Shown here one piece after another: positions 2,764 to 24,208 of a stretch of 64,000 nucleotides of DNA. The DNA is from Strigamia acuminata (taxonomy: Eukaryota): NCBI GenBank assembly GCA_949358305.1, contig OX442314.1, positions 26,288,001-26,352,000 on the forward strand, in the 5' to 3' direction. Positions within the stretch are counted from its first letter, which is position 1. Every line of letters begins with the position of its first letter. A program made the translations under genes and the position numbers. The notes below the pieces were generated by a model. It was not told the DNA's origin. It ran no database searches and worked only from the letters and a program-made list of their open reading frames with translations.

Positions 2764-3282
2764 TGTTGGTTTTGAGAAACCCAAATGTTTTATGTCGATG
2801 TGATATAGAATCACATTTTGATTGTTTAGTTTAATTATCTTGATGTATTAATTTCACATGTTTATTTACTTTGGTATTATGTTTGCTTTATGCATTTAAG
2901 CATGAAGCATCATGCATTCCCTAGTTTTATATTTATGTAATGCATAATTCCGACACAAGGTGTCGTTGCTTATGTTTTCATCATCCAAGATGGCCGCGCA
3001 CAGTGATGTGTGCTCTCCTTTTGATTTTCCCTTTGAAAAGGATCCCATATGTAAGCTTTTTCTTGTTTATATTAAATGCCTATTATTTTAGAGTCTTTAG
3101 TATTGATTTACAGCACCTTCTGTGCTATTTAAGCGCAGATAAGCGGCATTTTGCCGCGCGCTTTGTTTGGAATCGGTCACGTCGCTTTTACGTTCGTGTC
3201 AGAGACACGACGCCGCCATTTTCGCTTCCACACACTCGGTTTATACCGAATTCGCGCCGCTCGCCTCTGCTACTAACGTTCA
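2764..3282 (+). repeat. 3' LTR of element 1 (519 bp)
   Basis: Starts TGTTGG directly after the PPT and ends CA where the satellite begins. Shares the GCATCATGCAT and A(A/G)ATGGC motifs with the other two LTR families. Its partner LTR is outside the window. Confidence 0.85.
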
Positions 3283-4593
3283 GTTAACGGCCCGTGCGGG
3301 CCGTTGCGGGATCGTGACGGGATCGTCGACGGCCCGTTAACGGCCCGTGCGGGCCGTTGCGGGCCGTTGACGGGCCGTTGACGGGCCGTTAACGGGCCGT
3401 TAACGGGCCGTTACGGCGTGAATCGAAAAAATCAACAACCGACAACACGTACATGAAAACGCGTACAACATTCATAGACATTAATCTCGAATCCTGTTTT
3501 CGGTTTTGCCCCGTTAACGGGCCGTTAACGGGCCGTTAACGGGCCGTTAACGGCCCGTGCGGGCCGTTGCGGGATCGTGACGGGACCGTCGACGGCCCGT
3601 TAACGGCCCGTGCGGGCCGTTGCGGGATCGTGACGGGACCGTCAGCGGCCCGTTAACGGCCCGTGCGGGCCGTTGCGGGATCGTGACGGGATCGTCGACG
3701 GCCCGTTAACGGCCCGTGCGGGCCGTTGCGGGCCGTTGACGGGCCGTTGACGGGCCGTTAACGGGCCGTTAACGGGCCGTTACGGCGTGAATCGAAAAAA
3801 TCAACAACCGACAACACGTACATGAAAACGCGTACAACATTCATAGACATTAATCTCGAATCCTGTTTTCGGTTTTGCCCCGTTAACGGGCCGTTAACGG
3901 CCCGTGCGGGCCGTTGCGGGATCGTGACGGGACCGTCGACGGCCCGTTAACGGCCCGTGCGGGCCGTTGCGGGATCGTGACGGGACCGTCAGCGGCCCGT
4001 TAACGGCCCGTGCGGGCCGTTGCGGGATCGTGACGGGATCGTCGACGGCCCGTTAACGGCCCGTGCGGGCCGTTGCGGGATCGTGACGGGACCGTCAGCG
4101 GCCCGTTAACGGCCCGTGCGGGCCGTTGCGGGATCGTGACGGGATCGTCGACGGCCCGTTAACGGCCCGTGCGGGCCGTTGCGGGCCGTTGACGGGCCGT
4201 TGACGGGCCGTTAACGGGCCGTTAACGGGCCGTTACGGCGTGAATCGAAAAAATCAACAACCGACAACACGTACATGAAAACGCGTACAACATTCATAGA
4301 CATTAATCTCGAATCCTGTTTTTGGTTTTACGCCGTTAACGGGCCGTTAACGGGCCGTTAACGGCCCGTTAACGGCCCGCGTGAGGTCGTACGGGCCGTC
4401 GGCGAGCCGAAGTCCGGGAACGAAGGCCGTGACGGGATCGTGACGGGACCGTCAGCGGCCCGTTAACGGCCCGTGCGGGCCGTTGCGGGATCGTGACGGG
4501 ATCGTCGACGGCCCGTTAACGGCCCGTGCGGGCCGTTGCGGGCCGTTGACGGGCCGTTGACGGGCCGTTAACGGGCCGTTAACGGGCCGTTAC
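3283..4593. repeat. CpG-dense palindromic satellite, family 1
   Basis: Tandem GGCCCGTTAACGG(G)CC and GTGACGGGATCGTGACGGGACCGTC modules, with an AT-richer ~85-bp core at ~3421, 3790 and 4243. Confidence 0.95.
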
Positions 4594-5166
4594 TGTTGGT
4601 CCTTGAAACCACTTCGGACGTTTATTTAACGCTTTTTCGATGCGTAATGACGCTACCTGAACTTTTTCACATCATTGGTTGTTATATTTTCTTTCCCCAA
4701 ATGATTTAGTGTTTATTTCCTACTTAACTGGTTGTTACCAGTATATTTCCGTATATTTACTTTATATTGTAAGGGAAATGCATGGTGCCTGCATTAACTG
4801 TGTCTTAACACACTGGGCATCATGCATCGCCTATCTGTTTATACCTGTGTGTCGCTCGCTTCTGTCACCAGAGCGCACTGCCTTTTATTCCAAGATGGCG
4901 ACGCACACTGCTAAGTGTGCTCCTGTGCTTTTCAATCCTGTTTTCGTAAGTTTTAGGTTAATAAATCGTTTATTTTGTTTATAAATAATTCGTTTCTTGT
5001 GTCTGCACGTAGATAAGTGCAGACACCACGCAAATTCGACCAGAACCGGCTCGAATTCGCGTACACGACGCGCCGCACGTCTCGTGCGTGCTATATCGTA
5101 CGTGTTGGCTTATTTTTAAGCGTTTCCACTGCCTAGTCTGTGCTGTTTTTGCAGCATACCACCACA
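4594..5166 (+). repeat. 5' LTR of element 2
   Basis: Direct repeat of 10830-11402 (offset 6236); no differences seen by eye. Confidence 0.97.
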
Positions 5167-5168
5167 AT

Positions 5169-5180
5169 TGGTAGCAGAGG
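5169..5180 (+). promoter_or_regulatory. Primer-binding site complementary to the initiator tRNA-Met 3' end
   Basis: TGGTAGCAGAGG, 2 nt after the LTR; it is the reverse complement of the animal tRNAi-Met 3' end (...CCUCUGCUACCA). Confidence 0.9.
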
Positions 5181-5842
5181 CCTGGAAAGACACCAGGGCC
5201 TCGTTTTTTCCTTAATTTTCCACAATTTTCGCGATTTTTTCGCGAATTTTGCGGAAATTTTCTATATTTTCAGATTTTTCGCCGATTTACACCGATTTTC
5301 GACATGCGACGACGTCTACACGACGTTATCACCGAGAAACGGGTGTAACCCGCTGTTTAGCACCCCGGAGTGCGACAGTATCGACGATTTTCGTTCATTT
5401 TTCGCGATTTTTCGTTTAAAATCGCACATATCCGTGTTTTTCACACGAGGATCGCGTGTTGCGACGTGCACCGCGACTGATTCGTCAATTTCGCCTTATT
5501 TTGCCTTTCAGAGTCGAATTACCTTTGTTAATTTTAAGTGGGAATTTTGGTGTGGGACAATTAGAATCCTCGGCGCCCTTCGTCCGAATCCGGGCAAGCG
5601 CCGTTGTATTTTTCGGTTGTGCTTGTCGTGGTACAAGTGAGGTTTCCCGCGGCTCCAGGAAGTCGAACGGACCCTCTCAGACTGGCAACCGAAAGCTATT
5701 TAATTCCTTCAGAAGGAATTGCCCATTCTTGGTTTCCGCTTTGACAGTGCTACGGAAAGTGCTTCGCATCGTAATTTGTGCTTCGTTTGTGCGTCGATTG
5801 TGCGTCAATTTCCCATTTCTACGCTTTTTTCTCCGTGCAATC

Positions 5843-8800
5843 ATGAAAAAGGCCACCGACCAGTCGTCAGGCCATGTGCCGATTCTCGTGACCGGCAATT
5901 ACGAACACTGGCACCGTGCAATTAAAATGCTATTGATGTCCGACGGCGTATGGCACCACGTCACCGAAACGGAGGAACTAGTGAAAGCCAACGTCGATGA
6001 AGACGTTTGGCGAAAATGGCAACGTCGGAAAGCCCGAGCGCTGGGGACCATTTATTGCCACGTCTCGCAGGCCAAACAGTCGGCCCTCGACGGTTGCACC
6101 ACTCCGAAACAGGCGTGGGACATTTTAGCGAAAATTTACGCCCCCAGCTCTCTCGCCCGCCAAGCGGCGATGCGCCGTGAGTTCCTGCAGCTCAAGTTGG
6201 AGCCCGGCGAAGAAATGGCCGATTTCCTCAGCCGCGTTGACCTTATGGTCCGCCAACTTAAAGACGTCGGTGAAGACATCCTCCCTCGACATCACGCGTA
6301 CCAGTATTTAGACTTTCTTCCGGACGAATACGACCAAGCAACTTTTGCCATTTATCATTGGCCGCTGGCAGAGTTTACCCCGGCTAAAGTCTCCGATCAG
6401 TTGTTGTCGGAATATCTACGATTAAAGTCGCATTCGAACCGAAACTCCGGTAATTCCTCCGCTTATGCTACTGGGCGACAAGGACGTAACCAGTCGCGAC
6501 CTCCGCGCCCGCTTGCGCAGGTGCGTTGCTTCAATTGCAACGAGCTTGGACACTACGCCAATAAGTGCCAGCATCCTCGCAAGCAAACAACTGGGCAACA
6601 GCCGGTAGCTACGTTTCAGACACGATCTCGCAGCAAGAGTCGACGCCGCAATAAAGGCTCGAATCCGAATGTGAACCCGAATCAACAGCAGCAGGGACAG
6701 TTTCGCGAGTCTTCACGCCCGCGCCGAGATGCAGCATATCTCCTGTCCGCACCACCTGCGATCCAGGTTCCTACCGTTCATTTCGTCCAATCTCACGAAT
6801 GGATTGTTGACTGCGGCGCCACCGACCACGTTTCACACGTTAAATCGTGGTTCTTGGACTTTGTTGAGGTCGTCCCTTTTAATATCGAATTGGGACAAGG
6901 AAGCTCCAAAGTTACCGGAAAAGGGAATGTTCCAGTCAAGTCACTCATCGATGGCTGTGAATGCACCGTACTTCTCCGCGATGTTTTGTACGCACCTGAT
7001 TTCGGCGCTAATTTAATTTCGGTTTCGCGAGTCGATAAATGTGGGCATCACATACACATTTACAATTCGGAGTTGCATACATATGGGACGGATATCAAAC
7101 AAAGTGTTCTTCGGGCGAAGCAAAAGTCAGGACTTTACTTCGTAGATGGACTAATTTCGCCATTTGCGTCGCCGACTGTTGTTTCAAGTACACCGCCCAT
7201 CCCAATGTCACCTCCGACTACTGCGCCGATGACTCTCATCACGAAGGAGGAAGATTTTCCTGCACTACCGGCAAAGAAGTCCAGACAGAAATCGAACGTC
7301 CAGATAACTGACTTCCGCCTGCCTATCTCTCCCAACACCTTACTACTGCCTCCTCCTTCCCCGATTATTCCAACTCCTGTTCCCGGATCTCAACCACAAC
7401 AGATCCGGATGTATTCCAACATCCTATCATCTCCTCCTCCTCCCGTTGCCAAAACAAAGGCACTTCCTATCCCTAATCCGGTTAAGACTTCGAATGTCAA
7501 CGTTGCTGATGCCACGGGATTATGGCACGCCAGGTTGGGCCATCTCCACACCAAAGCCATGCGGACTTTGGCGAACAATTCCCAAGTTTATGGACTCGAT
7601 CCGGCTGCGGTTCGACAAGAACTTTCCTGCAACTCATGTCGCATTGCCAAGTCCACGCGCGCCTCGCATAAACCGATTCCCACACCTTCGACGACCAAAC
7701 CGTTGGAGTTGCTGCACATGGACGTCTGGGGCCCGTCAAGACTGACTTCGATTGGCGGTGCTGATTATGCCTTCTCCATTGTTGACGACGCGACCCGATA
7801 TTCGTGGATTTTTCCGATTGCACGCAAATCCGACGTTTTTGCGACTTTCAAAGACTTTGTTTCTCGCGTTGAACGCATTACGGATTCCCGCGTCAAATCA
7901 ATTCGCACGGATCGCGGCGGGGAATTTATTTCTAAGACTTTTGACCGTTACCTCGCTGACAAGGGCATTGTCGCACAACGGACCAATCCCGGAAGCCCAC
8001 AAATGAACGGGGTCGCCGAACGCCTAAACCGGACGATGGGCGACTATCTTCGCTCCGTTACCTCCGAAACCGGTTTTCCGCACACACTTTGGGCTGAACT
8101 CGCTGTGACATTTTCGTACGTTAAAAATCGCAGCCCGCATTCGAAACTTAACGACGAAGTTCCATATGTTTTATGGCGCCAGCGTGCCCTCTCCGTCAAA
8201 CATTTCCGAAAAATTGGTTCTAAATGCTGGGTGCATTTCACCGCACCCGGGCGCAACAAAATGGATCCACGGGCGTGGGAAGGATTTCTCGTAGGTTACG
8301 CCTCCAACACTCGCGGTTATCGGGTTTGGAATCCGGCTACGAACACCGTCACGGAATCCGTTCACGTTCAAATCGATGAACGTCAGAATTTCAAACGCTC
8401 GCCGTTTTACGTTCCGGATCCCTACGAAAATGCTCCATTCATGGAGGAGCCCTCTCACGTCACTACACCGTCCCGTGTCACTTTTGACGATGGCGCTTTC
8501 CCATCTGTCCCCTGGTCACGTCGACGTCGTGATTCCGACGATGAATCATCTAATGACGATGATGAATTCCGCCATCGGGCTCCATCAAGCGCTTCATCAG
8601 TCGCTTCATATCGCTCCGTCCTCGAGGAGGTCGAAGAGGACATTGCTGATGAATTGCCTCCTCCTATTCTGTTTGCGGACGATGTACCGGAGGACATCGA
8701 TTTGGACGTCACGCCTGACCCACCACTTCCGCTTTACCGTCCTCGGAGGAGATTACGTCCCGACGCTTTGGCTCGTCAACCTCACACCCCTGAGGCCAGC

Positions 8801-10783
8801 GATAGTGAACTCGACGTTGATCACGATATCGAACAATTTTTCGAACGCTATCCCGAACGTGATTTCGAGCACGACCCCGAAGATGATCCACTTGATAATC
8901 TCCTCGATGATCTCCTCGATAAGGCAGCCGCCTTACCAGCGGCCGCTGCAACGCCTGCACCGCCTCTCGCTCCGTTACGCGCTCTTCACTGCCCCTATCG
9001 TTTTATTGGTGGAGATACGCCCTTCAGCGGATGGAGGAGGGAAGAGCATCTCCGGAAAGAACAAGCGCCTGGCAAAATCAAGGTCGACGTTTATTACTAT
9101 CCGGAGCACGGTGTCCGCTTAAGGTCGAGAGGGGACATCGAAAGATATTGCGTCGCTCACCAACTTCCGTATGAGGAGGACATTTTCTTTTTCGGCAACC
9201 TCGAACATCAATTGCAGGACGAGCAACCTGTTCATCGCGTCCTTATGTGTTTTCGAGAGCCGTCCACGTACGCCGAAGCTGTTAAGCTACCCGAGGCACC
9301 GAAGTGGACCGAGGCAATCGATGAGGAGCTCACGACTTTCAAGGAACGCGAAGTTTATAAGGAAGTTCCACGACCCCCGGACAAGACAATCCTCGGGTGT
9401 AAATGGATTTTTCGGTTGAAATCGGATGCCACCGGGAAAATTCACCGCTACCGTGCTCGACTTGTCGCACAAGGTTTCCGCCAAACAATGGGCGTTGATT
9501 TCGATGAAGTTTTTAGTCCGGTGGTTAACTTCGTGCTCATCCGATTCTTTTTCTGCCTCCTAGTCGTTTTACTAGGATGGAGGGATCTCCACCTCGACGT
9601 CAAGTGTGCCTACCTTTACGGCGACCTCGACCACGAAATTTACATGCGGATTCCCGCCGGCGCCACATGCACCTCACCCGACAACGTCTGGTTGTTAACC
9701 AAGTCACTTTACGGTCTTCACCAGTCGGGGCGCATGTGGTACCAGAAGCTCAACGAGACGTTAACCGACCTCGGATTCCAGAAATTTCCCGCTTGTAATT
9801 GCGTTTACGCATTTGGACATTCGGCTGTTATGTTAGTCTACGTGGACGATATCGTCGTATTTTACGCGTCGGAGAGTATCCGAGACCGTATTTTGGCGCT
9901 GATTTCCAGCAAATTCGACATCGTCAACCTCGGACCAATAACCAAATTACTCGGGGTAGAATTCGTGCGTCGCGATGGGAAAGTTTTCATGTCCCAACGC
10001 TCCTACATCGACAAACTTCTTAAAAAGTTCAACGTTTCGTCAGATGCACTCATTAAAGTGCCTGTCACACCGGGGACCACGCTCGTCAAAGGCTCGTTGG
10101 ATAATCTCCCGGACTTTCCGTACCGATCGCTCATCGGATCGTTATTATTCCTCGCCTCTCGCACTCGTCCCGACATATTATACTCGGTCATCGCTTTATC
10201 GCAGTATAATAACTGCTACGACCACCGCCACATCAAGTGTTTGCTCCAAGTTCTCAAATACGTGGCGAACACGAGCGATTTCTCGATCGAACTCTCGGGG
10301 TGTAATTCCAGTCAGCTGTGGGGATACACAGATGCGTCGTGGGCGAGCGACATTGCGACATCGAGAAGTTTCGGAGGATACATCTTTTATATCGGTTGTG
10401 TGCCAATCGGCTGGAGCTGCAAAAAGCAGACCAGCGTCGCCTGTTCCACCATGGAAGCCGAGTTTGTGGCACTAGTCGAAATCGTTAAAGAGTTATACTG
10501 GTTGGACAGTATCTATCGAGTCTTTCCACCGTTAAACCGATTATCGAAACCGATTATTTTCTCCGATGCCCTCGCCTCGATCCAATTCACGAACAACGAC
10601 ATCGAGAACTCGAAAACCAAACATATTCGAGTGAAGTTCCATTGGCTTCGAGAATGGCATATTGCCGGGTGCTTCGAACTCCGCAAAATTCCGGGTGAAA
10701 TAAATGTTTCAGATATTTTCACGAAATGGCTTAGTTCCGAACGCCTCCGAAATTTGTTGTCCCGGATCTTCATCTCGAAATAA
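5843..10783 (+). CDS. gag-pol: Copia gag-pol polyprotein, 1646 aa from ATG 5843: Gag, CCHC knuckle, protease, integrase, MBD (~9020-9190), RT, RNase H
   Basis: Knuckle CFNCNELGHYANKC. Protease WIVDCGATDH. Integrase WHARLGH...CNSC, LHMDVWG, IRTDRGGEF and NGVAERLNRT. MBD GWRREEHLRK...VDVYYYPEHGVRLRS. RT YVDD. RNase H TDASWA and SDIFTK. No stops or frameshift. Confidence 0.96.
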   Translation: MKKATDQSSGHVPILVTGNYEHWHRAIKMLLMSDGVWHHVTETEELVKANVDEDVWRKWQRRKARALGTIYCHVSQAKQSALDGCTTPKQAWDILAKIYAPSSLARQAAMRREFLQLKLEPGEEMADFLSRVDLMVRQLKDVGEDILPRHHAYQYLDFLPDEYDQATFAIYHWPLAEFTPAKVSDQLLSEYLRLKSHSNRNSGNSSAYATGRQGRNQSRPPRPLAQVRCFNCNELGHYANKCQHPRKQTTGQQPVATFQTRSRSKSRRRNKGSNPNVNPNQQQQGQFRESSRPRRDAAYLLSAPPAIQVPTVHFVQSHEWIVDCGATDHVSHVKSWFLDFVEVVPFNIELGQGSSKVTGKGNVPVKSLIDGCECTVLLRDVLYAPDFGANLISVSRVDKCGHHIHIYNSELHTYGTDIKQSVLRAKQKSGLYFVDGLISPFASPTVVSSTPPIPMSPPTTAPMTLITKEEDFPALPAKKSRQKSNVQITDFRLPISPNTLLLPPPSPIIPTPVPGSQPQQIRMYSNILSSPPPPVAKTKALPIPNPVKTSNVNVADATGLWHARLGHLHTKAMRTLANNSQVYGLDPAAVRQELSCNSCRIAKSTRASHKPIPTPSTTKPLELLHMDVWGPSRLTSIGGADYAFSIVDDATRYSWIFPIARKSDVFATFKDFVSRVERITDSRVKSIRTDRGGEFISKTFDRYLADKGIVAQRTNPGSPQMNGVAERLNRTMGDYLRSVTSETGFPHTLWAELAVTFSYVKNRSPHSKLNDEVPYVLWRQRALSVKHFRKIGSKCWVHFTAPGRNKMDPRAWEGFLVGYASNTRGYRVWNPATNTVTESVHVQIDERQNFKRSPFYVPDPYENAPFMEEPSHVTTPSRVTFDDGAFPSVPWSRRRRDSDDESSNDDDEFRHRAPSSASSVASYRSVLEEVEEDIADELPPPILFADDVPEDIDLDVTPDPPLPLYRPRRRLRPDALARQPHTPEASDSELDVDHDIEQFFERYPERDFEHDPEDDPLDNLLDDLLDKAAALPAAAATPAPPLAPLRALHCPYRFIGGDTPFSGWRREEHLRKEQAPGKIKVDVYYYPEHGVRLRSRGDIERYCVAHQLPYEEDIFFFGNLEHQLQDEQPVHRVLMCFREPSTYAEAVKLPEAPKWTEAIDEELTTFKEREVYKEVPRPPDKTILGCKWIFRLKSDATGKIHRYRARLVAQGFRQTMGVDFDEVFSPVVNFVLIRFFFCLLVVLLGWRDLHLDVKCAYLYGDLDHEIYMRIPAGATCTSPDNVWLLTKSLYGLHQSGRMWYQKLNETLTDLGFQKFPACNCVYAFGHSAVMLVYVDDIVVFYASESIRDRILALISSKFDIVNLGPITKLLGVEFVRRDGKVFMSQRSYIDKLLKKFNVSSDALIKVPVTPGTTLVKGSLDNLPDFPYRSLIGSLLFLASRTRPDILYSVIALSQYNNCYDHRHIKCLLQVLKYVANTSDFSIELSGCNSSQLWGYTDASWASDIATSRSFGGYIFYIGCVPIGWSCKKQTSVACSTMEAEFVALVEIVKELYWLDSIYRVFPPLNRLSKPIIFSDALASIQFTNNDIENSKTKHIRVKFHWLREWHIAGCFELRKIPGEINVSDIFTKWLSSERLRNLLSRIFISK

Positions 10784-10829
10784 TTTCATCGAACTGTTAA
10801 TATCGACATTGCACATCGAAGGAGGGAAT

Positions 10830-11402
10830 TGTTGGTCCTTGAAACCACTTCGGACGTTTATTTAACGCTTTTTCGATGCGTAATGACGCTACCTGAACTT
10901 TTTCACATCATTGGTTGTTATATTTTCTTTCCCCAAATGATTTAGTGTTTATTTCCTACTTAACTGGTTGTTACCAGTATATTTCCGTATATTTACTTTA
11001 TATTGTAAGGGAAATGCATGGTGCCTGCATTAACTGTGTCTTAACACACTGGGCATCATGCATCGCCTATCTGTTTATACCTGTGTGTCGCTCGCTTCTG
11101 TCACCAGAGCGCACTGCCTTTTATTCCAAGATGGCGACGCACACTGCTAAGTGTGCTCCTGTGCTTTTCAATCCTGTTTTCGTAAGTTTTAGGTTAATAA
11201 ATCGTTTATTTTGTTTATAAATAATTCGTTTCTTGTGTCTGCACGTAGATAAGTGCAGACACCACGCAAATTCGACCAGAACCGGCTCGAATTCGCGTAC
11301 ACGACGCGCCGCACGTCTCGTGCGTGCTATATCGTACGTGTTGGCTTATTTTTAAGCGTTTCCACTGCCTAGTCTGTGCTGTTTTTGCAGCATACCACCA
11401 CA
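10830..11402 (+). repeat. 3' LTR of element 2
   Basis: Follows the PPT GAAGGAGGGAA and matches the 5' LTR. Confidence 0.97.
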
Positions 11403-12485
11403 GTTACGGCGTAAATCGAAAAAATCAACAACCGACAACACGTACGTGAAAACGCGTACAACATTCATAGACATTAATCTCGAATCCTGTTTTTGGTTTT
11501 ACGCCGTTAACGGGCCGTTAACGGGCCGTTAACGGCCCGTTAACGGCCCGCGTGAGGTCGTACGGGCCGTCGGCGAGCCGAAGTCCGGGAACGAAGGCCG
11601 TGACGGGATCGTGACGGGACCGTCAGCGGCCCGTTAACGGCCCGTGCGGGCCGTTGCGGGATCGTGACGGGATCGTCGACGGCCCGTTAACGGCCCGTGC
11701 GGGCCGTTGCGGGCCGTTGACGGGCCGTTGACGGGCCGTTAACGGGCCGTTAACGGGCCGTTACGGCGTAAATCGAAAAAATCAACAACCGACAACACGT
11801 ACGTGAAAACGCGTACAACATTCATAGACATTAATCTCGAATCCTGTTTTTGGTTTTACGCCGTTAACGGGCCGTTAACGGCCCGTTAACGGCCCGTTAA
11901 CGGCCCGCACAGGCCGTGACGGGATCGTGACGGGACTGTCGGCGGCCCGTTAACGGCCCGCACGAGCCGTGACGGGATCGTGACGGGACCGTCGGCAGCC
12001 CGTTAACGGCCCGTACGACTCCATGCGGGCCGTTGACGGGATCGTGACGGGACCGTCGGCAGCCCGTTAACGGCCCGCACGGGCCGTGACGGGATCGTGA
12101 CGGGACCGTCGGCGGCCCGTTAACGGCCCGCACGAGCCGTGACGGGATCGTGACGGGACCGTCGGCAGCCCGTTAACGGCCCGCACGGGCCGTGACGGGA
12201 TCGTGACGGGACCGTCGGCGGCCCGTTAACGGCCCGCACGAGCCGTGACGGGATCGTGACGGGACCGTCGGCGGCCCGTTAACGGCTTGTACGGGCCGTT
12301 ACGGGATCGTGACGGGACCGTCGGCGGCCCGTTAACGGCTCGCACGGGCCGTTAACGGGGTCGTTACGGGACCGTCGGCGGCCCGTGCGGCGGCCTCGCC
12401 AACCTCGTGCGGCCCGTTAACGGCCCGTACGGGCCGTTACGGGGCCGTTGCGGGATCGTCGGCGGCCCGTTAACGGCCCGCACGG
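11403..12485. repeat. CpG-dense satellite, family 1
   Basis: Same modules as 3283-4593; cores at ~11414 and 11771. Confidence 0.93.
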
Positions 12486-12770
12486 GACAACGGGCGCCAA
12501 CGAGCGCCGGTAGTCCCGGTAATTTGTTTCAAAATAAATATTTGTCACCGTCTCCCCTCCCTCCTCCTCCTCCCCCTCCTCTCCCTCTCGAGGCCAGACA
12601 CGGCCGCTCCAAAATACGAACCACGACGATGCCTCCGTACCGATAGACCGAGTGGGTCGCGCGACAGACAATGCGCGCAAACTACCGTCGGCGCACGGTG
12701 TGCACGGCGCAACACCACGGAAGTAACTACCGGTGCGCCCCTCGTGCGTGCGAGGCAATCCCGAGCTCGC

Positions 12771-13620
12771 TTAACCTTGGGGTATGTGTGCGGATTTTGT
12801 CGGGGGCGAAAGGGTCCCGCTTTTTAACATTACGGCGGCCTATACGTTGTTTCGTTGATCGCGACTGCGATGCGGAATTTGCGGATGTTGTTTTGGCCGA
12901 GTAGTTCGTGCGACCGAGCGCGTTTTGTTCGTTGCTTTTCGGTGTTCGGTGGGTTTTGTGACCGGTCAAGGGTTTCGCTAAAACGTGGTTTTTGAGTACG
13001 GGGGGGAGGGGGGGGATCGGGTCGCGTGCTCCGAAAGCGCCGCGACGCGCCGTGACTTGGGCCAAAAACGACCCGGTCGGAAACCGGGTCCCGGGCTTCG
13101 TCGAGGCGTGGTCCCGATCGGGACAAACTCTTCCGGAAAATGTCCGGTGGAATGTTGAGAGTGTCGATGGACGACGTTCGAGTTTATATCGTAAGTAAGT
13201 AAGTATCTGACAAAACTTGCACAGAATTTTGTCAACATTTGATAAATTTCCACAGAATTTAACGTTGTTTTGCTAAAACCTGCGGAAACGTGTCTAGTCG
13301 GGCAGAAACGTCTCGTAAAATGTTGCTGAAATTCCGTGGAAATTTGTCAAAAATTGACAAAAGTTGGTGACCGACCCACATCGCGTTGCGGCGCGGTCGG
13401 AGCACGCGACCCGATCCCCCCCCCCCCCCTCCCCCCGTCCCCAAAAAACCACGCCTCGAGGAACCCCGAGGTTCGGTTTCCGACCGGGTCGCCTCTTGAT
13501 CCGACTCGGGGCGCGTCACGGCGCGGTCGGAGGACGGCCCTCGCCCCCAAAAACCACACTCCGGGTCACGTGGTCTCGCACCCGACTCTTTCAGTTTTCC
13601 CGTTTTCAGCCCGTTACGGG
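12771..13620 (+). repeat. Satellite-associated dispersed repeat starting TTAACCTTGGGG
   Basis: Internally deleted copy at 27248-27660; inverted partial copy at ~23080-23450; internal inverted repeat (~12990-13100 vs ~13375-13490). Confidence 0.8.
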
Positions 13621-14989
13621 ATCGTGACGGGACTGTCGGCGGCCCGTTAACGGCCCGCACGAGCCGTGACGGGATCGTGACGGGACCGTTGGCGGCCCGT
13701 TAACGGCCCGCACGGGCCGTGACGGGATCGTGACGGGACCGTCGGCGGCCCGTTAACGGCCCGTACGACTCCATGCGGGCCGTTGACGGGCCGTTGACGG
13801 GCCGTTAACGGGCCGTTAACGGGCCGTTACGGCGTAAATCGAAAAAATCAACAACCGACAACACGTACGTGAAAACGCGTACAACATTCATAGACATTAA
13901 TCTTGAATCCTGTTTTTGGTTTTACGCCGTTAACGGGCCGTTAACGGCCCGTTAACGGCCCGTTAACGGCCCGCGTGAGGTCGTACGGGCCGTCGGCGAG
14001 CCGAAGTCCGGGAACGAAGGCCGTGACGGGATCGTGACGGGACCGTCAGCGGCCCGTTAACGGCCCGTGCGGGCCGTTGCGGGATCGTGACGGGATCGTC
14101 GACGGCCCGTTAACGGCCCGTGCGGGCCGTTGCGGGCCGTTGACGGGCCGTTGACGGGCCGTTAACGGGCCGTTAACGGGCCGTTACGGCGTGAATCGAA
14201 AAAATCAACAACCGACAACACGTACATGAAAACGCGTACAACATTCATAGACATTAATCTCGAATCCTGTTTTCGGTTTTGCCCCGTTAACGGGCCGTTA
14301 ACGGGCCGTTAACGGGCCGTTAACGGCCCGTGCGGGCCGTTGCGGGATCGTGACGGGACCGTCGACGGCCCGTTAACGGCCTGTGCGGGCCGTTGCGGGA
14401 TCGTGACGGGACCGTCAGCGGCCCGTTAACGGCCCGTGCGGGCCGTTGCGGGATCGTGACGGGATCGTCGACGGCCCGTTAACGGCCCGTGCGGGCCGTT
14501 GCGGGATCGTGACGGGACCGTCAGCGGCCCGTTAACGGCCCGTGCGGGCCGTTGCGGGATCGTGACGGGATCGTCGACGGCCCGTTAACGGCCCGTGCGG
14601 GCCGTTGCGGGCCGTTGACGGGCCGTTGACGGGCCGTTAACGGGCCGTTAACGGGCCGTTACGGCGTGAATCGAAAAAATCAACAACCGACAACACGTAC
14701 ATGAAAACGCGTACAACATTCATAGACATTAATCTCGAATCCTGTTTTCGGTTTTGCCCCGTTAACGGGCCGTTAACGGCCCGTGCGGGCCGTTGCGGGA
14801 TCGTGACGGGACCGTCGACGGCCCGTTAACGGCCCGTGCGGGCCGTTGCGGGATCGTGACGGGACCGTCAGCGGCCCGTTAACGGCCCGTGCGGGCCGTT
14901 GCGGGATCGTGACGGGATCGTCGACGGCCCGTTAACGGCCCGTGCGGGCCGTTGCGGGATCGTGACGGGACCGTCAGCGGCCCGTTAAC
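13607..14989. repeat. CpG-dense satellite, family 1
   Basis: Same modules; cores at ~13837, 14194 and 14669. Confidence 0.93.
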
Positions 14990-15542
14990 TGTTGGACTTT
15001 GGAACCGCTTTTCACCTAATTAAATCGTTTTTCGATGTGAAATGACTTTGAAATGTTTATTTTATTATCCATCGGTTATCTTTTCTTATTCGGGGTAATT
15101 TAGTATTGTTTCTTATGTTTTTCCTTAGTTTCTGTGTAAAGGGAATGCATGATGCCTTTTAGATGTGTCTTATCCATCTGGCATCATGCATCCTCTATTC
15201 TGTGTGTATTTCTACTTATTGTTTCTATTTTCGGCCACCAGATGTCTCTGGCACTTTGCAAATGGCCGCGCACACAGCCAGTGTGTTTCTCTATGTTTTC
15301 AAATGGTTTTTGGATCAATTATGTAAGTTTTCTCGAATTAAAGTGTATTTTGTTAATTATCAGTATTAGTTTATGTGCCACACGTCTTTATAAGTGTGGT
15401 ACACGCGTTTTCTGGCCCAATACAGACCCGAACTCGCGTTTACGCATCACGGCAATTTTTCCAGCTCATGCATTGCCGTGAGCACGTTATTTTCACGCTT
15501 CCAGCACGATTTATCGTGCATTTATTGCGCCACAGTGCTACA
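14990..15542 (+). repeat. 5' LTR of element 3
   Basis: Direct repeat of 21219-21771 (offset 6229); no differences seen by eye. Confidence 0.97.
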
Positions 15543-15544
15543 AG

Positions 15545-15556
15545 TGGTAGCAGAGG
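15545..15556 (+). promoter_or_regulatory. Primer-binding site (tRNAi-Met)
   Basis: TGGTAGCAGAGG, 2 nt after the 5' LTR. Confidence 0.9.
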
Positions 15557-16264
15557 CCTGGAAAGACACCAGTGCCTCGTTTTTTCACTAATTTTCCGTA
15601 AATTTCGCGATTTTTTCGCGATTTGTGCGGAAATTTTTGTTTATTTCCAGTTTTTCGCCGAATTTCCGATGTCTCGACACACTTTGTACCCCGGAGTACA
15701 GTGTGGCCACATAGAACTTCATCTCGCTTAGTACCCCGGTGTACGGCGAATTTTTTTTCAGAAGTTTTTCCCGATTTTCACAATCGGACGGCGATTTTTT
15801 TCCCGATTTTCGAAATCGGTCGGCGATCTTTTGAAGAATTCCGCATTTTTTATGCGCGGTGTGCACAGGGACGTCTGTGCATACAGATTCATCAACTTCT
15901 CCTTCCTTTTATTTCAGATTTCGAATTTATTTGTTAGTTTTAAGTTTTTTGGTGTGGGTCAATTAGAATCCTTGGCGCCCTTCGTCCAAATCTGGGCAAG
16001 CGTCACTGTATTCTTAGACAAGGCTGAGCCCTGCGCCACCTAACATTCCCGCGGCCCCAGGTGGTCATAAAGGACGTTAGGGGGACACTTGTCTAAGGTT
16101 TTCAAGCCAATTTTAGCATTGGCTCCCCGTCGAGGTCTTTCCGCTTCGAACAACGTTTGTGTGTGCGTCGGTAGTGCTTCGAGTGCTTCGAGTGAAAAGT
16201 GCTTCAATTTCGTCAATTGTGCTTCGATTTTCGGAAATTTTTCGACGATTTTTCCTCCGCAATC

Positions 16265-19200
16265 ATGCAAAAGGCTTCCGAAGCGACGTTGGGACGTGTA
16301 CCGGTCCTGACGACCGGCAACTACGAACAATGGCAACGAACAGTTAAGATGTTGCTCAAAAGTGAAGGCCTGTGGCATCACGTCACAGAAGACGGCGAGG
16401 AGGATTTTCTGAAGACGGCGGATGATAAAGAGAAACGCAAATATCAACGTCGGAAGGAACGAGCCCTAGGAACAATTTATTGTTTGGTATCCGAAGCCAA
16501 ACAGTCGGCACTCGATGGCTGCGAGACACCGAAGGAACAATGGGACATGCTCGCCAAGATCTACGCCCCCAGTTCACTTGCCCGTCAGGCAGCTATGCGC
16601 CGACAGTTCTTGCAATTGAAACTGGAGCCGAACGAGGAGATGCCCGATTTCCTGGGGCGTGTAGACCTGATGGTTCGTCAATTGAAGGACATCGGAGAGG
16701 ACATTCTCCCTCGACATCAGGCCTACCAGTACCTCGATTTTCTTCCAGCGGATTACGACCAGGCAACGTTCTCCATTTACCATTGGCCGTTGGCGAATTT
16801 TACCCCGGCCAAAGTCTCCGAACAGCTCTTGTCGGAATACCTTCGTTTGAAGTCGAAATCCGACCACGATACGAAGAAGACGTCGGCATTCGCCGCGGAC
16901 AATCGCAACCGCAGTCAATCTCGCAATCCTCGTCCACTATCGCAAATTTGTTGTTTCAATTGCGATCAGATGGGCCACTACGCGAACAAATGCCCTCTTC
17001 CGCGCCGACAATCGAAGGAACAGCAACCGGCAGCTGCACTACAAGGACGATCTCGCAGCAAAAACCGACGTCGAAAGGGAACCAATTCTCAGCAACCGGG
17101 TGGTCAAAGCCGTGAAATTTCCCGCCCGCGACGTGATGCTGCGTACCTCTTGTCTGCGCCACCAGTTGTTACAGCACCGACTGTGCATTTCCTCCAATCC
17201 CACGAATGGATCGTTGATTGCGGCGCAACCGACCACGTGTCGCACGTTAAAGCGTGGTTCACGAACTTTGTTTCCGTTGTCCCGTTTAACATCGAGTTAG
17301 GACAAGGCAGTTCGAAGGTCACAGGCAAAGGTGACGTTCCGGTCAAGTCGCTCATCGATGGCTGCGAATGCACCGTAATGCTACGCGACGTCTTATTCGC
17401 ACCTGACTTCGGCGCCAACTTAATCTCGGTTTCTCGGATTGATAAATGCGGACATCACATCCACATTCACAACTCGGAATTGCATACGTATGAAACGGAC
17501 ATCAAACTAAGTGTTCTTCGGGCGAAACAGAAGTCTGGACTTTATTTCGTGGATGGGCTTATCTCGCCATTCGCCGCTCCGACTAATGTTTCGAGTTCTC
17601 CACCCGTTTCATCGTTGCCTCCGACTCCGACACCGACCACTCTAGTGACGAAGGAAGAGGACTTTCCCGCATTGCCCAAGTCTTCCAACAAGGCTAAGAC
17701 GAAGTCGGCTGACAATATGACCGATTTCCGCTTGCCCGTCTCCTCCAACACCTTACTGGTCCCTTCACTTTTTCCTACCAGTCCTGCTCCCATTCCCGGA
17801 TCCCAACCTCAACAGATCCGGATGTATTCCAATGCCCTCACCTCTCCTCTTCCCGTTGCCAAGTCAAACGCAACATCACCTCCTCCTGTTGCTAAGTCAA
17901 ATGCAACATCACCTCCTAAACCGGTTACTACGTCGGTCAACGTCGCGGATGCCACGGGATTGTGGCACAGCAGACTGGGTCACCTGCACACCAAAGCCAT
18001 GCGGACTTTGGCTGCTAACTCCCAGGTTTACGGACTTGATCCAGCTGCTGTTCGACAGGAACTTTCATGCAACACGTGCCGTGTCGCCAAGTCTACGCGT
18101 GCTTCGCATAAGCCGATTTCCGCACCTTCGACCACGAAACCGCTTGAATTGCTTCACATGGACGTCTGGGGCCCGTCGAGACTGCCTTCCATTGGTGGCG
18201 CTAATTTCGCCTTCACCATTATCGACGACGCCACCAGGTATGCCTGGCTTTTCCCGATTGCCCGTAAATCCGATGTTTTCGCTACGTTCAAAGACTTTGT
18301 TTCCCGTGTCGAACGTATAGCCGATTGCCGGATCAAAACGATTCGTACCGACCGTGGAGGAGAATTCATTTCAAGGGATTTTGACCGTTATCTCGCCGAC
18401 AAGGGTATTGTTGCGCAACGGACCAACCCCGCGAGCCCACAGATGAATGGAGTCGCCGAACGCCTGAACCGGACGATGGGCGATTATCTCCGCTCCGTTA
18501 GATCCGAAACCGGATTTCCGCATACGCTTTGGGCCGAACTTGCTGTGACATTCGTGTACATCAAGAACCGAAGTCCACATTCGAAGCTCAACGACGAAAT
18601 CCCGTACATTTTGTGGCGCCAGCGAGCTCTCTCCGTCAGACATTTTCGTAAAATCGGTTCCAAGTGCTGGGTGCACTTCACCGCACCTGGACGCAATAAA
18701 CTGGACCCTCGAGCTTGGGAGGGATTTCTCGTCGGCTACGCGTCTGGAACTCGAGGATATCGTGTTTTGAATCCGGCTACGAACACTGTCACCGAAACTG
18801 TCCACGTCCAAATCGATGAACGGCAGAACTTTAAACGCTCGCCCTTTTATGTTCCGGATCCGGATGACAATGCTCCACCCATGGAGGAGCCTGCTCGTGG
18901 CCACACCCCGTCGCGTGTCACTTTTCATGATAATTTCCCAACTCAACCTTGGCCTCGACGACGTCGCGATTCGGATAACGATTCTTCCGCCGGCAGTAGT
19001 GACGATGATGGAATTATCAGTCGTGCTCAGTCTGTCGCTTCGACCGCTCCGTCTTTCGCTTCATTTGCCCCGTCCGCCGCTGCAAGCGTGCCTCTGGATG
19101 GTGAGGCTATTCCTGATGGCTCCGTGACCGCTGCCGATGACTCCGTTACTGCAGCGACCGTTGCAGGACATGGCCAATTTTCTCCAACCATACGTTCCAC

Positions 19201-21172
19201 GCGTTTACCCCAGCTGCGACGTTCGATCTCTTACCCAACTCTTCCATGTCTTGACGATACCACGGCGATGTCTGTACAGGGTTCTGACTTTGACGACGAC
19301 CTTCTTGACGAAGCGGCCGCCTTACCTATTCCCGCTCCGGGTACGCCTAATTTGGCCCCTTTACGTGCTCTTCATTGCCCTTGGAGTTTTATTGGCGGCG
19401 TTTCGCCCTTCAGCGGATGGAGGAGAGAGGAACATCTCCGGAAAGATCAAATCCCGGGAAAGATCAAGGTCGACGTTTATTATTATCCGGAACACGGTGT
19501 CCGCTTGCGGTCGCAGAACGATATCGCCGCTTATTGTTTCGCACATCGGCTACCGTATGACGAGTCTATTTTCTTTTTTGGCAATTTGGAACACCACATG
19601 CCCTATGTTCCACCATCGCCTCATCGTGTCTTCATGTGTTTTCGGGAACCGGCCACATATGCCGAAGCAGTTAAATTGCCCGAAGCACCGAAATGGACCG
19701 AAGCAATCGACGAGGAGCTTTCTACTTTCAAGAAGCGCGAGGTTTACAAAGAGGTTCCGCGTCCACCGGATAAGACAGTCCTAGGTTGCAAGTGGATTTT
19801 CAAGTTAAAATCGGACGCCACCGGGACAATTCATCGATACCGTGCCCGACTTGTCGCACAAGGTTTCCGCCAAACAATGGGCGTTGATTTCGATGAAGTT
19901 TTTAGTCCGGTAGTTAACTTCGTGCTCATCCGATTTTTCTTCTGTCTTCTAGTCGTCTTGTTGGGATGGAGGGATACTCATCTCGACGTAAAATGTGCCT
20001 ACCTCTACGGCGACCTCGACCACGAAATCTACATGCGGATTCCCGCCGGTGCCACATGCTCCTCGCCCGACAACGTCTGGTTGTTGACCAAGTCGCTTTA
20101 CGGTCTTCATCAGTCGGGGCGCATGTGGTACCAAAAGCTCGATGAAACGTTAACCGGACTCGGATTCCAGAAATTTCCGGCTTGTAATTGCGTTTACGCA
20201 TTTGGACATTCGGCCATCATGTTAGTTTACGTTGACGACATCGTTTTATTTTACGCGTCGGAGAACATCCGAGACCGTATTCTTGCATTGATCACGAGCA
20301 AGTTCGAAATCGTCAACCTCGGCCCGATAACCAAGTTGCTCGGAGTGGAATTCGAGCGTCGTGACGGGAAAGTCTTCATGACTCAACGCAATTACATCGA
20401 TAAACTCCTCAAAAAGTTTAATGTTTCGTCCGATGCACTCATTAAAGTGCCTGTCACACCGGGAACCACGCTCGTGAAAGGCTCGTTGGACAATCTCCCA
20501 GATTTCCCGTATCGGTCGCTCATCGGATCATTACTTTTTCTCGCTTCTCGCACTCGTCCCGATATCTTATACTCGGTCATCGCTCTCTCGCAGTACAACA
20601 ACTGCTACGACCAAAGCCACATTAAGTGTTTGCTTCAAGTTCTTCGATATGTGGCCAATACGAGTGATTATTCCATCGAACTTTCGAAATGCGATTCGAG
20701 TCAACTATGGGGTTGCACAGACGCCTCTTGGGCCTCCGACATTGCTACATCGAGATCATTCGGCGGATACATTGTCTACATCGGAAGTGTGCCCATTGGC
20801 TGGAGCTGCAAAAAACAGACCAGTGTTGCTTGCTCCACCATGGAAGCCGAGTTTGTGGCATTAGTCGAAATCGTCAAGGAATTATACTGGTTGGACAGTA
20901 TTTATCGAGTATTTCCGCCTTTACGTCGATTATCGAAACCGATCATATTTTCCGATGCCCTCGCCTCGATTCAGTTCACGAACAACGACATCGAGAACTC
21001 GAAAACGAAACATATTCGAGTGAAGTTTCACTGGCTTCGTGAGTGGCATATTGCCGGATGTTTCGAACTCCGCAAGATTCCGGGTGAGATAAATGTATCC
21101 GACATTTTCACCAAGTGGCTCAGTTCAGAGCGCCTCCGGAATTTATTATCACGCATTTTCGTCTCGAAGTAA
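16265..21172 (+). CDS. gag-pol: Copia gag-pol polyprotein, 1635 aa from ATG 16265, with MBD (~19405-19580)
   Basis: Same domain motifs as element 2. The ATG context GCAATCATG is shared with element 2. MBD GWRREEHLRKDQIPGKIKVDVYYYPEHGVRLRSQNDIAAYC. Confidence 0.96.
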   Translation: MQKASEATLGRVPVLTTGNYEQWQRTVKMLLKSEGLWHHVTEDGEEDFLKTADDKEKRKYQRRKERALGTIYCLVSEAKQSALDGCETPKEQWDMLAKIYAPSSLARQAAMRRQFLQLKLEPNEEMPDFLGRVDLMVRQLKDIGEDILPRHQAYQYLDFLPADYDQATFSIYHWPLANFTPAKVSEQLLSEYLRLKSKSDHDTKKTSAFAADNRNRSQSRNPRPLSQICCFNCDQMGHYANKCPLPRRQSKEQQPAAALQGRSRSKNRRRKGTNSQQPGGQSREISRPRRDAAYLLSAPPVVTAPTVHFLQSHEWIVDCGATDHVSHVKAWFTNFVSVVPFNIELGQGSSKVTGKGDVPVKSLIDGCECTVMLRDVLFAPDFGANLISVSRIDKCGHHIHIHNSELHTYETDIKLSVLRAKQKSGLYFVDGLISPFAAPTNVSSSPPVSSLPPTPTPTTLVTKEEDFPALPKSSNKAKTKSADNMTDFRLPVSSNTLLVPSLFPTSPAPIPGSQPQQIRMYSNALTSPLPVAKSNATSPPPVAKSNATSPPKPVTTSVNVADATGLWHSRLGHLHTKAMRTLAANSQVYGLDPAAVRQELSCNTCRVAKSTRASHKPISAPSTTKPLELLHMDVWGPSRLPSIGGANFAFTIIDDATRYAWLFPIARKSDVFATFKDFVSRVERIADCRIKTIRTDRGGEFISRDFDRYLADKGIVAQRTNPASPQMNGVAERLNRTMGDYLRSVRSETGFPHTLWAELAVTFVYIKNRSPHSKLNDEIPYILWRQRALSVRHFRKIGSKCWVHFTAPGRNKLDPRAWEGFLVGYASGTRGYRVLNPATNTVTETVHVQIDERQNFKRSPFYVPDPDDNAPPMEEPARGHTPSRVTFHDNFPTQPWPRRRRDSDNDSSAGSSDDDGIISRAQSVASTAPSFASFAPSAAASVPLDGEAIPDGSVTAADDSVTAATVAGHGQFSPTIRSTRLPQLRRSISYPTLPCLDDTTAMSVQGSDFDDDLLDEAAALPIPAPGTPNLAPLRALHCPWSFIGGVSPFSGWRREEHLRKDQIPGKIKVDVYYYPEHGVRLRSQNDIAAYCFAHRLPYDESIFFFGNLEHHMPYVPPSPHRVFMCFREPATYAEAVKLPEAPKWTEAIDEELSTFKKREVYKEVPRPPDKTVLGCKWIFKLKSDATGTIHRYRARLVAQGFRQTMGVDFDEVFSPVVNFVLIRFFFCLLVVLLGWRDTHLDVKCAYLYGDLDHEIYMRIPAGATCSSPDNVWLLTKSLYGLHQSGRMWYQKLDETLTGLGFQKFPACNCVYAFGHSAIMLVYVDDIVLFYASENIRDRILALITSKFEIVNLGPITKLLGVEFERRDGKVFMTQRNYIDKLLKKFNVSSDALIKVPVTPGTTLVKGSLDNLPDFPYRSLIGSLLFLASRTRPDILYSVIALSQYNNCYDQSHIKCLLQVLRYVANTSDYSIELSKCDSSQLWGCTDASWASDIATSRSFGGYIVYIGSVPIGWSCKKQTSVACSTMEAEFVALVEIVKELYWLDSIYRVFPPLRRLSKPIIFSDALASIQFTNNDIENSKTKHIRVKFHWLREWHIAGCFELRKIPGEINVSDIFTKWLSSERLRNLLSRIFVSK

Positions 21173-21218
21173 CTTTTTCGATCATTCAACACCGACATTT
21201 TACATCGAAGGAGGGAAT

Positions 21219-21771
21219 TGTTGGACTTTGGAACCGCTTTTCACCTAATTAAATCGTTTTTCGATGTGAAATGACTTTGAAATGTTTATTTTATTATCCA
21301 TCGGTTATCTTTTCTTATTCGGGGTAATTTAGTATTGTTTCTTATGTTTTTCCTTAGTTTCTGTGTAAAGGGAATGCATGATGCCTTTTAGATGTGTCTT
21401 ATCCATCTGGCATCATGCATCCTCTATTCTGTGTGTATTTCTACTTATTGTTTCTATTTTCGGCCACCAGATGTCTCTGGCACTTTGCAAATGGCCGCGC
21501 ACACAGCCAGTGTGTTTCTCTATGTTTTCAAATGGTTTTTGGATCAATTATGTAAGTTTTCTCGAATTAAAGTGTATTTTGTTAATTATCAGTATTAGTT
21601 TATGTGCCACACGTCTTTATAAGTGTGGTACACGCGTTTTCTGGCCCAATACAGACCCGAACTCGCGTTTACGCATCACGGCAATTTTTCCAGCTCATGC
21701 ATTGCCGTGAGCACGTTATTTTCACGCTTCCAGCACGATTTATCGTGCATTTATTGCGCCACAGTGCTACA
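21219..21771 (+). repeat. 3' LTR of element 3
   Basis: Follows the PPT GAAGGAGGGAA and matches the 5' LTR. Confidence 0.97.
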
Positions 21772-23084
21772 TTAACGGCCCGTGCGGGCCGTTGCGGGAT
21801 CGTGACGGGATCGTCGACGGCCCGTTAACGGCCCGTGCGGGCCGTTGCGGGCCGTTGACGGGCCGTTGACGGGCCGTTAACGGGCCGTTAACGGGCCGTT
21901 ACGGCGTGAATCGAAAAAATCAACAACCGACAACACGTACATGAAAACGCGTACAACATTCATAGACATTAATCTCGAATCCTGTTTTTGGTTTTACGCC
22001 GTTAACGGGCCGTTAACGGGCCGTTAACGGCCCGTTAACGGCCCGCGTGAGGTCGTACGGGCCGTCGGCGAGCCGAAGTCCGGGAACGAAGGCCGTGACG
22101 GGATCGTGACGGGACCGTCAGCGGCCCGTTAACGGCCCGTGCGGGCCGTTGCGGGATCGTGACGGGATCGTCGACGGCCCGTTAACGGCCCGTGCGGGCC
22201 GTTGCGGGCCGTTGACGGGCCGTTGACGGGCCGTTAACGGGCCGTTAACGGGCCGTTACGGCGTAAATCGAAAAAATCAACAACCGACAACACGTACGTG
22301 AAAACGCGTACAACATTCATAGACATTAATCTCGAATCCTGTTTTTGGTTTTACGCCGTTAACGGCCCGTTAACGGCCCGCACAGGCCGTGACGGGATCG
22401 TGACGGGACCGACGGCGGCCCGTTAACGGCCCGTGCGGGCCGTTACGGGATCGTGACGGGACCGTCACGATCCCGTCAACGGCTTGTACGGGCCGTTACG
22501 GGATCGTGACGGGACCGTCGGCGGCCCGTTAACGGCCCGTGCGAGCCGTTACGGGATCGTGACGGGACCGTCACGATCCCGTCAACGGCTTGTACGGGCC
22601 GTTACGGGATCGTGACGGGACCGTCGGCGGCCCGTTAACGGCCCGTGCGAGCCGTTACGGGATCGTGACGGGACCATCACGATCCCGTCAACGGCTTGTA
22701 CGGGCCGTTACGGGATCGTGACGGGACCGTCGGCGGCCCGTTAACGGGCCGTTAACGGCCCGCGTGAGGTCGTACGGGCCGTCGGCGAGCCGAAGTCCGG
22801 GAACGAAGGCCGTTACGGGGTCGTCACGGGACCGTCGGCGGGCCGTTACGGGACCGTCACGATCCCGTCACGGCCCGTGCGGGCCGTTAACGGGCCGCCG
22901 ACGGTCCCGTCACGATCCTGTAACGGCTCGCACGGGCCGTTAACGGGCCGCCGACGGTCCCGTCACGATCTCGTAACGGCTCACACGGGCCGTTAACGGC
23001 CCGTCAACGGCCCGTCAACGGCCCGCATGGGGTCGCACGGGCCGTTAACGGGCCGCCGACAGTCCCGTCACGATCCCGTAACGG
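21772..23084. repeat. CpG-dense satellite, family 1 (module orientation flips near 22850)
   Basis: Cores at ~21909 and 22266; modules are reverse-complemented after ~22850. Confidence 0.92.
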
Positions 23085-23475: not shown

Positions 23476-23707
<232 letters not shown>

Positions 23708-23729
23708 TTTTTTTTTTTTTTTTCGCTAG

Positions 23730-24131: not shown

Positions 24132-24208
24132 ACGAGTGGTTTACAATATTTTTTTTTTTTATTTTTTTTATATTTTTAAGACTGAAGAATAAAGTCTGAT
24201 TATTGTAT

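What the first reader, a model, noticed from the sequence alone, without database searches (positions are those of the whole stretch)
3283..21776. Three independent MBD-Copia insertions land in one CpG-dense satellite, all at its GTTAAC/GTTAC core
Seen: target duplications are GTTAC (element 2) and TTAAC (element 3), and GTTAA follows the 3' LTR of element 1. GTTAA and TTAAC are the two symmetric registers of the palindrome GTTAAC, flanked by CpG on both sides. The three elements have different LTRs, so they are separate events within only ~4 kb of host sequence, all on the + strand. No such element lies in the other ~42 kb. Inference: a reader-target system in which the MBD docks on methylated satellite and integrase cuts the AT core. 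The satellite may act as a landing pad or a host decoy. This satellite-level specificity is the strongest candidate for an undescribed system here.
Basis: partly seen in the sequence, partly recalled or inferred. Interest (0 to 1): 0.9.

Follow-up and report, generated by a model that had tools for sequence, protein, structure and literature searches.

The report
Methyl-reader retrotransposons clustered in palindromic repeat
Three related jumping genes of an already described arthropod family, each carrying a domain predicted to read methylated DNA, sit side by side in a CpG-rich palindromic repeat, most likely because they favour CpG-dense DNA and GTTA-type palindromic cut sites rather than because they are dedicated to this one repeat.

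Summary
Three Copia elements with an MBD between integrase and reverse transcriptase lie in one CpG-dense repeat. Elements 2 and 3 are intact, have identical LTR pairs, and carry target duplications GTTAC and TTAAC; GTTAA follows element 1. They are CopiaMBD elements, a family described in 2019 (PMC6673714) together with the idea that the MBD steers insertion to methylated CpG-dense repeats. The shared GTTA core is beyond chance (P about 0.02 after allowing for a post-hoc motif). A satellite-specific system is not needed to explain it: 57% of the GTTA-type sites in the window's host DNA lie in this block, so a plain site preference gives 3 of 3 with P 0.19, or 0.41 with CpG weighting. The two other element-2-family junctions that were resolved in public runs are not this array, and one still begins GTTA. 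Methylation of the repeat is unshown; I found no CpG-decay excess. What may be new is a GTTA/palindrome target motif for CopiaMBD. Genome-wide enrichment could not be tested because no genome is held, and the junction sample is tiny and biased against satellite flanks.

The parts
1..2547 (+). Element 1 pol ORF, 5'-open (SH3, MBD, RT, RNase H region)
796..960 (+). Element 1 MBD (Pfam PF01429, E 1.4e-3, below the curated cut-off)
2764..3282 (+). Element 1 3' LTR (519 bp, TG...CA), purine tract upstream
3283..3287 (+). GTTAA, putative 3' copy of the element 1 duplication (5' copy outside the window)
3283..4593 (.). Array A of the CpG-dense repeat (11-bp palindromic monomers, 53-bp units, 98-bp AT-rich spacer); ends in GTTAC at 4589-4593
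4594..5166 (+). Element 2 5' LTR; primer-binding site at 5169-5180
5843..10783 (+). Element 2 intact gag-pol ORF, 1646 aa
9029..9172 (+). Element 2 MBD (E 2.9e-5, above the curated cut-off)
10830..11402 (+). Element 2 3' LTR, identical to the 5' LTR; GTTAC follows at 11403-11407
11403..12490 (.). Array B, the continuation of array A
12491..13608 (.). Non-array linker with boxes that recur at 27242-27649 and, inverted, at 23080-23450
13609..14989 (.). Array D; ends in TTAAC at 14985-14989
14990..15542 (+). Element 3 5' LTR; primer-binding site at 15545-15556
16265..21172 (+). Element 3 intact gag-pol ORF, 1635 aa
19415..19552 (+). Element 3 MBD (E 2.1e-5, above the curated cut-off)
21219..21771 (+). 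Element 3 3' LTR, identical to the 5' LTR; TTAAC follows at 21772-21776
21772..23084 (.). Array E, the continuation of D; orientation flips near 22850
27648..28098 (.). Array F, a short uninvaded copy of the same repeat

Best explanation
These are three CopiaMBD retrotransposons whose MBD likely draws integration towards CpG-dense, probably methylated repeat DNA, and whose integrase likely prefers GTTA-type palindromic sites, which this abundant repeat supplies more densely than any other DNA in the window. Shown: family membership, domain order, LTR identity, the two duplications, and site and CpG densities. Inferred: methylation of this repeat, MBD binding to it, tethering during integration, and that the GTTA preference belongs to the integrase.
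For: Domain order. RT clade of 26 sequences, 24 with an MBD, support 1.0. The MBD keeps the R, D, Y and R that align with MBD2 and shares WRREEHLRK with a published Strigamia CopiaMBD (by eye). The arrays have 17-18 CpG/100 bp, the highest in the window. The element 2 and 3 sites are centred on, or half a base off, palindromes with 5-bp arms; element 1's flank matches element 3's. Palindromic target motifs are general for LTR integrases (PMC3276498 passages). 57% of GTTAN/NTAAC sites fall in the invaded block; P(3 of 3) is 0.19 on motif alone, 0.41 with CpG, and 0.002 under uniform insertion. A non-array junction of the element-2 family also begins GTTA (run X3). Two young CopiaMBDs 3.4 kb apart on one scaffold are already in the published Strigamia table (AFFK01019209).
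Against: The motif rests on 3 window sites plus 1 outside site, and was defined after seeing them. The other resolved outside junction ends in GATCG, not GTTA. The GTTA-starting outside flank resembles the spacer's right end over about 12 of 14 letters by eye, so it could be a degraded array edge. The array shows no CpG-transition excess (5 of 12 against 0.42 expected). Elements 1 and 3 hit the same position of the higher-order unit (P 0.036), which hints at finer positional preference. Generic AT-centred preference and generic palindrome preference do not explain the clustering: shares in the block are 0.06 and 0.31.
Confidence: 0.6

Rival explanations
1. Satellite-specific targeting: this CopiaMBD subclade is dedicated to this repeat. 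The MBD or a repeat-bound factor would dock on it, and integrase would cut its GTTAAC core at a fixed distance from the spacer.
For: 3 of 3 window insertions from three LTR families are in it. A second CpG-rich satellite (7.1 kb, 12.8-12.9 CpG/100 bp) has none. CpG-only models give P 0.01-0.03. Elements 1 and 3 use the same unit position. Short-read contigs break at satellite junctions, so likely under-reports them.
Against: 2 of 2 individually resolved other junctions are not this array. Three merged 5' flanks in run X1 agree only 0.59 and are not array-like. The second satellite almost lacks GTTA sites (8 in 7.1 kb), so it does not discriminate between the models. Spacer depth is about 100-200 times the element-2 depth (not a true copy number), so the repeat is a very large target.
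Confidence: 0.17
2. Retention rather than targeting: insertions are broadly spread but persist or accumulate in this gene-poor, repeat-dense block, and the GTTA core reflects only integrase chemistry. The MBD would play no part in site choice.
For: The whole window is repeat-dense. PMC6673714 itself says selection after insertion cannot be excluded. There is no sequence sign of methylation in the array.
Against: Identical LTRs leave little time for selection to act. About 41 kb of equally repeat-rich host DNA holds no insertion. The published DAP-seq and flank data favour an MBD role.
Confidence: 0.18
3. Chance clustering in a window picked after the fact.
For: n = 3. The window and the motif were chosen post hoc.
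Against: Two separate low probabilities: location 0.017 given the first insertion and shared 4-mer 0.017.
Confidence: 0.05

Closest known systems
CopiaMBD of Strigamia maritima and Stegodyphus spiders (de Mendoza, Pflueger and Lister 2019, PMC6673714)
   Same: Copia gag-pol with an MBD between integrase and RT in one ORF, conserved methyl-CpG residues, and young copies in CpG-dense repeat DNA. The MBD signature is closest to two Strigamia sequences in Table S3.
   Different: A new host lineage or subfamily: the closest database protein is 51% identical. The paper's main text has 0 occurrences of 'satellite', 'tandem', 'target site' or 'TSD', so the GTTA/palindrome motif and the tandem-array context are not described there.
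Centrophilic LTR elements in satellite arrays: Tal1 (Copia), ATHILA, CRM chromoviruses (PMC10984392; bioRxiv 10.64898/2026.09.17.752431, passages)
   Same: Young LTR elements inserted into tandem-repeat arrays, in some cases through a chromatin-reading part of integrase.
   Different: Tal1 reads CENH3 chromatin and CRM carries a chromodomain; neither uses an MBD. Nothing shows that this repeat is centromeric, and its arrays here are short and boxed.
Palindromic target-site motifs of LTR integrases (PMC3276498, PMC6911290, passages)
   Same: 5-bp duplication centred on a palindromic, AT-cored site.
   Different: The published motifs are usually weak. Here 4 of 5 resolved sites share GTTA in one orientation, on a very small sample.
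TE-borne satellite-like arrays (Tetris foldback PMC4079207, Helentron arrays PMC7492417; search listing and abstract start only)
   Same: Short tandem arrays bounded by conserved boxes and inverted repeats.
   Different: No transposase or diagnostic terminus was identified here, so this is a resemblance only.

Membership tests
Ty1/Copia LTR retrotransposon | gag-protease-integrase-RT (RVT_2)-RNase H order in pol | tested here: met
   Retrotran_gag_2, Pol_BBD, rve, then RVT_2 in elements 2 and 3; element 1 is partial
Ty1/Copia LTR retrotransposon | TG...CA LTRs, primer site, purine tract, 5-bp duplication | tested here: met
   met in full for elements 2 and 3. That the primer site matches initiator Met tRNA is recalled, not from a call
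CopiaMBD | MBD between integrase and RT in the same ORF | tested here: met
   PF01429 in 3 of 3, above the curated cut-off in 2 of 3; best PDB hit MBD2, E 8e-4
CopiaMBD | Methyl-CpG contact residues kept (two Arg, Asp, Tyr) | tested here: met
   aligned with MBD2 in 3 of 3. Their role is from PMC6673714 (Tyr) and from recall (Arg, Asp)
CopiaMBD | RT monophyletic with other MBD-bearing Copia | tested here: met
   clade of 26, 24 with MBD, support 1.0, includes Araneus and Trichonephila proteins; 40 of 96 non-MBD homologues used, midpoint root. The published Strigamia RTs were not in the tree; their MBDs were compared by eye
CopiaMBD | MBD binds methylated CpG DNA | not testable with these tools
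   shown for three Strigamia MBDs in PMC6673714, not for these
CopiaMBD | Flanks CpG-denser than for other LTR elements | tested here: inconclusive
   flanks have 17 CpG/100 bp against 5-13 elsewhere, but the window holds no MBD-less control element
Satellite-specific (centrophilic-type) targeting system | Most copies genome-wide lie in the one repeat | tested here: inconclusive
   0 of 2 resolved outside junctions are in the array; 26 of 43 loose-end rows were hidden and the sample is biased; no genome is held
Satellite-specific (centrophilic-type) targeting system | Target repeat is methylated or bears the mark read | tested here: inconclusive
   5 of 12 transitions are CpG-type against 0.42 expected; low power

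The most novel reading that the evidence does not exclude
A CopiaMBD subclade has become a specialist of one methylated palindromic repeat. The captured MBD tethers the integration complex to the array and integrase cuts its CCGTTAACGG core at a set position in the higher-order unit. This would be the first satellite-targeting retrotransposon guided by DNA methylation, and the repeat would act as a sink for insertions.
Probability: 0.17. Interest if true: 0.7.

Novelty: new member of a known kind. Interest (0 to 1): 0.36.

Why it matters
The 2019 model that an MBD steers Copia insertion rests on flank statistics. Intact copies with identical LTRs, readable duplications and a candidate GTTA/palindrome motif offer a concrete system in which methylation reading can be separated from integrase sequence preference. 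If satellite specialisation were real, it would add a methylation-guided route to the known CENH3- and chromodomain-guided invasion of satellites. On present evidence this is a good example of a known family.

Tried and rejected
No whole genome is held, so no genome-wide copy collection was possible. No RNA holder was listed; this says nothing about expression. Earlier scan notes: none in 4 look-ups. Metagenome search: 4 of 79 loci carry an MBD, none offers both flanks, and none of the 79 matches the repeat. Rfam: 0 matches in the window. Pfam on 12 ORFs of the 23-37 kb region: only one sub-threshold coiled-coil-like hit and no transposase, so the carrier of the repeat is unidentified. CpG-decay test: no excess in the array, the second satellite, the linker or the 1.7 kb units; only the 46-50 kb repeats reach p 0.015, one of five regions tested. 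Rejected: one insertion copied by segmental duplication, because the LTRs are 56-64% identical and the duplications differ. Rejected: generic AT-centred preference, because only 6% of such sites are in the block. Rejected: shared strand as evidence (p 0.25). Literature: 'CopiaMBD' occurs in 1 paper of the library. A six-term search linking MBD, LTR elements, satellite and target site in arthropods found 0 papers. Subscription papers are not covered, and supplement file 1 of PMC6673714 was unreadable.

Full report
The observation. The window holds the 3' part of one Copia element and two complete ones. Element 2 spans 4594-11402 with identical 573-bp LTRs and a GTTAC duplication. Element 3 spans 14990-21771 with identical 553-bp LTRs and a TTAAC duplication. 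Element 1 ends at 3282 and is followed by GTTAA; its 5' end is outside the window. Elements 2 and 3 have open gag-pol frames of 1646 and 1635 aa. The empty site of element 3 occurs exactly, over 300 bp on each side, elsewhere in the array, and that of element 2 over 100 bp on each side, so these are clean insertions. The LTRs are 56-64% identical between elements. The RT-RNase H regions are 90% (2 vs 3) and 70% (1 vs 2) identical in protein. These are three separate events by related elements.

What the elements are. Pfam finds an MBD between integrase and RT in all three. The element-2 MBD's best solved relative is MBD2, with the two arginines, aspartate and tyrosine aligned. In an RT tree of 64 sequences (24 MBD-bearing, plus 40 of 96 others), the three fall in a 26-member clade in which 24 carry an MBD, support 1.0. 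This is the CopiaMBD family of PMC6673714. I read parts 1-4 of 7 of its main text, the supplementary figure legends, and Tables S3 and the start of S5. That paper shows by DAP-seq that such MBDs bind methylated CpG-dense DNA, shows that young copies sit in CpG-denser flanks, and proposes MBD-guided integration. By eye, the window MBDs share WRREEHLRK and the surrounding pattern with a Strigamia CopiaMBD in Table S3; a myriapod host is plausible but inferred. Table S5 already lists two young CopiaMBDs 3.4 kb apart on one scaffold.

What the target is. The repeat is built of roughly 11-bp palindromic monomers grouped in 53-bp units and interrupted by a 98-bp AT-rich spacer. It has 17-18 CpG per 100 bp, against 12.8-12.9 in a second satellite and 5-10 elsewhere. 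It forms short arrays bounded by recurring boxes, one pair inverted, which resembles TE-borne arrays more than a long satellite; no carrier element was identified. In three public runs the spacer's summed depth is about 100-200 times that of element 2's interior (my ratios, and the tool warns that depth is not copy number), so it is a very abundant target.

Is the core beyond chance? The four core 5-mers are 4.6% of array sites. Allowing for the motif being chosen afterwards, three random sites share any 4-mer with P = 0.017. Element 2's duplication is centred on an odd palindrome with 5-bp arms, and element 3's lies half a base off the centre of CCGTTAACGG. Element 1 uses the other register at the same unit position as element 3; their 3' flanks are identical for 217 bp, and P of sharing a position class is 0.036. 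Palindromic target motifs are the general rule for LTR integrases (PMC3276498 and PMC6911290, passages).

Is it satellite-specific? The invaded block is 13% of the 47,102 host sites in the window. Under uniform insertion 3 of 3 has P 0.002, and under CpG weighting 0.01-0.03. But 57% of all GTTAN/NTAAC sites are in the block, so a site preference alone gives 0.19, and with CpG weighting 0.41. The uninvaded second satellite has only 8 such sites, so it cannot separate the two models. The only outside data are for the element-2 family (4 runs laid, 3 with coverage; 17 of 43 loose-end rows shown). Run X3 gives one 5' flank ending GATCG in a CpG-rich stretch, and one 3' flank starting GTTAT. Neither of the 18-19-letter motifs taken from them occurs in the window at up to 3 mismatches. 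Run X1 gives three merged 5' flanks with agreement 0.59 whose summary ends TTAAC but is otherwise not array-like. So the family inserts outside this array, and GTTA recurs there at least once. Against my reading: the sample is tiny, contigs break at satellite junctions and likely hide array insertions, one site lacks GTTA, and the GTTAT flank loosely resembles the spacer's right end. Flanks of the element 1 and 3 families remain unexamined.

Methylation. Variants among array copies show no CpG-transition excess (5 of 12 against 0.42 expected; in the spacer alone 3 of 5 transitions are CpG-type), and CpG is over-represented throughout the window. The test is weak, so methylation of the repeat is neither shown nor excluded.

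Mechanism. Most likely (0.6), the MBD biases integration towards CpG-dense, probably methylated repeat DNA, and integrase picks GTTA-type palindromic sites, of which this repeat is the richest local source. The structure, motif and densities are shown; methylation, binding and tethering are inferred from the published family. Rivals are satellite specialisation (0.17), retention without an MBD role (0.18) and chance (0.05).

Novelty. Retrotransposon invasion of satellites is also known (Tal1, ATHILA, CRM; passages of PMC10984392 and bioRxiv 10.64898/2026.09.17.752431; the latter has 0 mentions of MBD). A target-site motif or tandem-array context for CopiaMBD was not found in the 2019 main text, its searchable supplements (file 1 unreadable) or my searches. 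Verdict: new member of a known kind, with a testable new detail. Interest 0.36.

Noticed in passing
window 13220-13604 and 23080-23450; 12765-13057 and 27242-27533: The invaded repeat is boxed. Array D+E is flanked by an 86% inverted repeat and flips orientation near 22850, like a foldback element, and linker boxes recur 98% identical before array F. One higher-order unit folds into long hairpins (z -14).
   Followed up: partly
window 38660-42470 and 55415-58745: A second CpG-rich palindromic satellite (56-bp and 551-bp units) with no Copia insertion. It shares the motif AAGTCCGGGAA with the invaded repeat (seen by eye), and both are preceded by a similar 49-bp box (13124-13172, 38370-38418, 51070-51118).
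   Followed up: partly
window 52461-63919: Large near-perfect palindrome (52461-56083 against 61698-58076, 99.4%) with tandem 1.7 kb units around the second satellite.
   Followed up: no
window 23500-37600: A run of apparent multi-exon genes with short microsatellite-filled introns and duplicated segments, with no Pfam family above cut-off in 12 ORFs. Possibly cargo of a large mobile element.
   Followed up: partly
P0001-P0026: MBD-bearing Copia are more widespread than the two genera reported in 2019. 21 of 120 listed homologues carry the domain by my profile, including Araneus ventricosus and Trichonephila clavipes proteins; two clade members (P0005, P0008) had no MBD hit.
   Followed up: partly
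window-wide: CpG is over-represented everywhere (observed/expected 1.3-1.7, including the elements themselves), so there is no long-term CpG depletion.
   Followed up: partly
window 3421-22266: Spacer-to-spacer distance in the host array is most often 357 bp (4 of 8 intervals). All three insertions lie within about 130 bp upstream of a spacer.
   Followed up: partly
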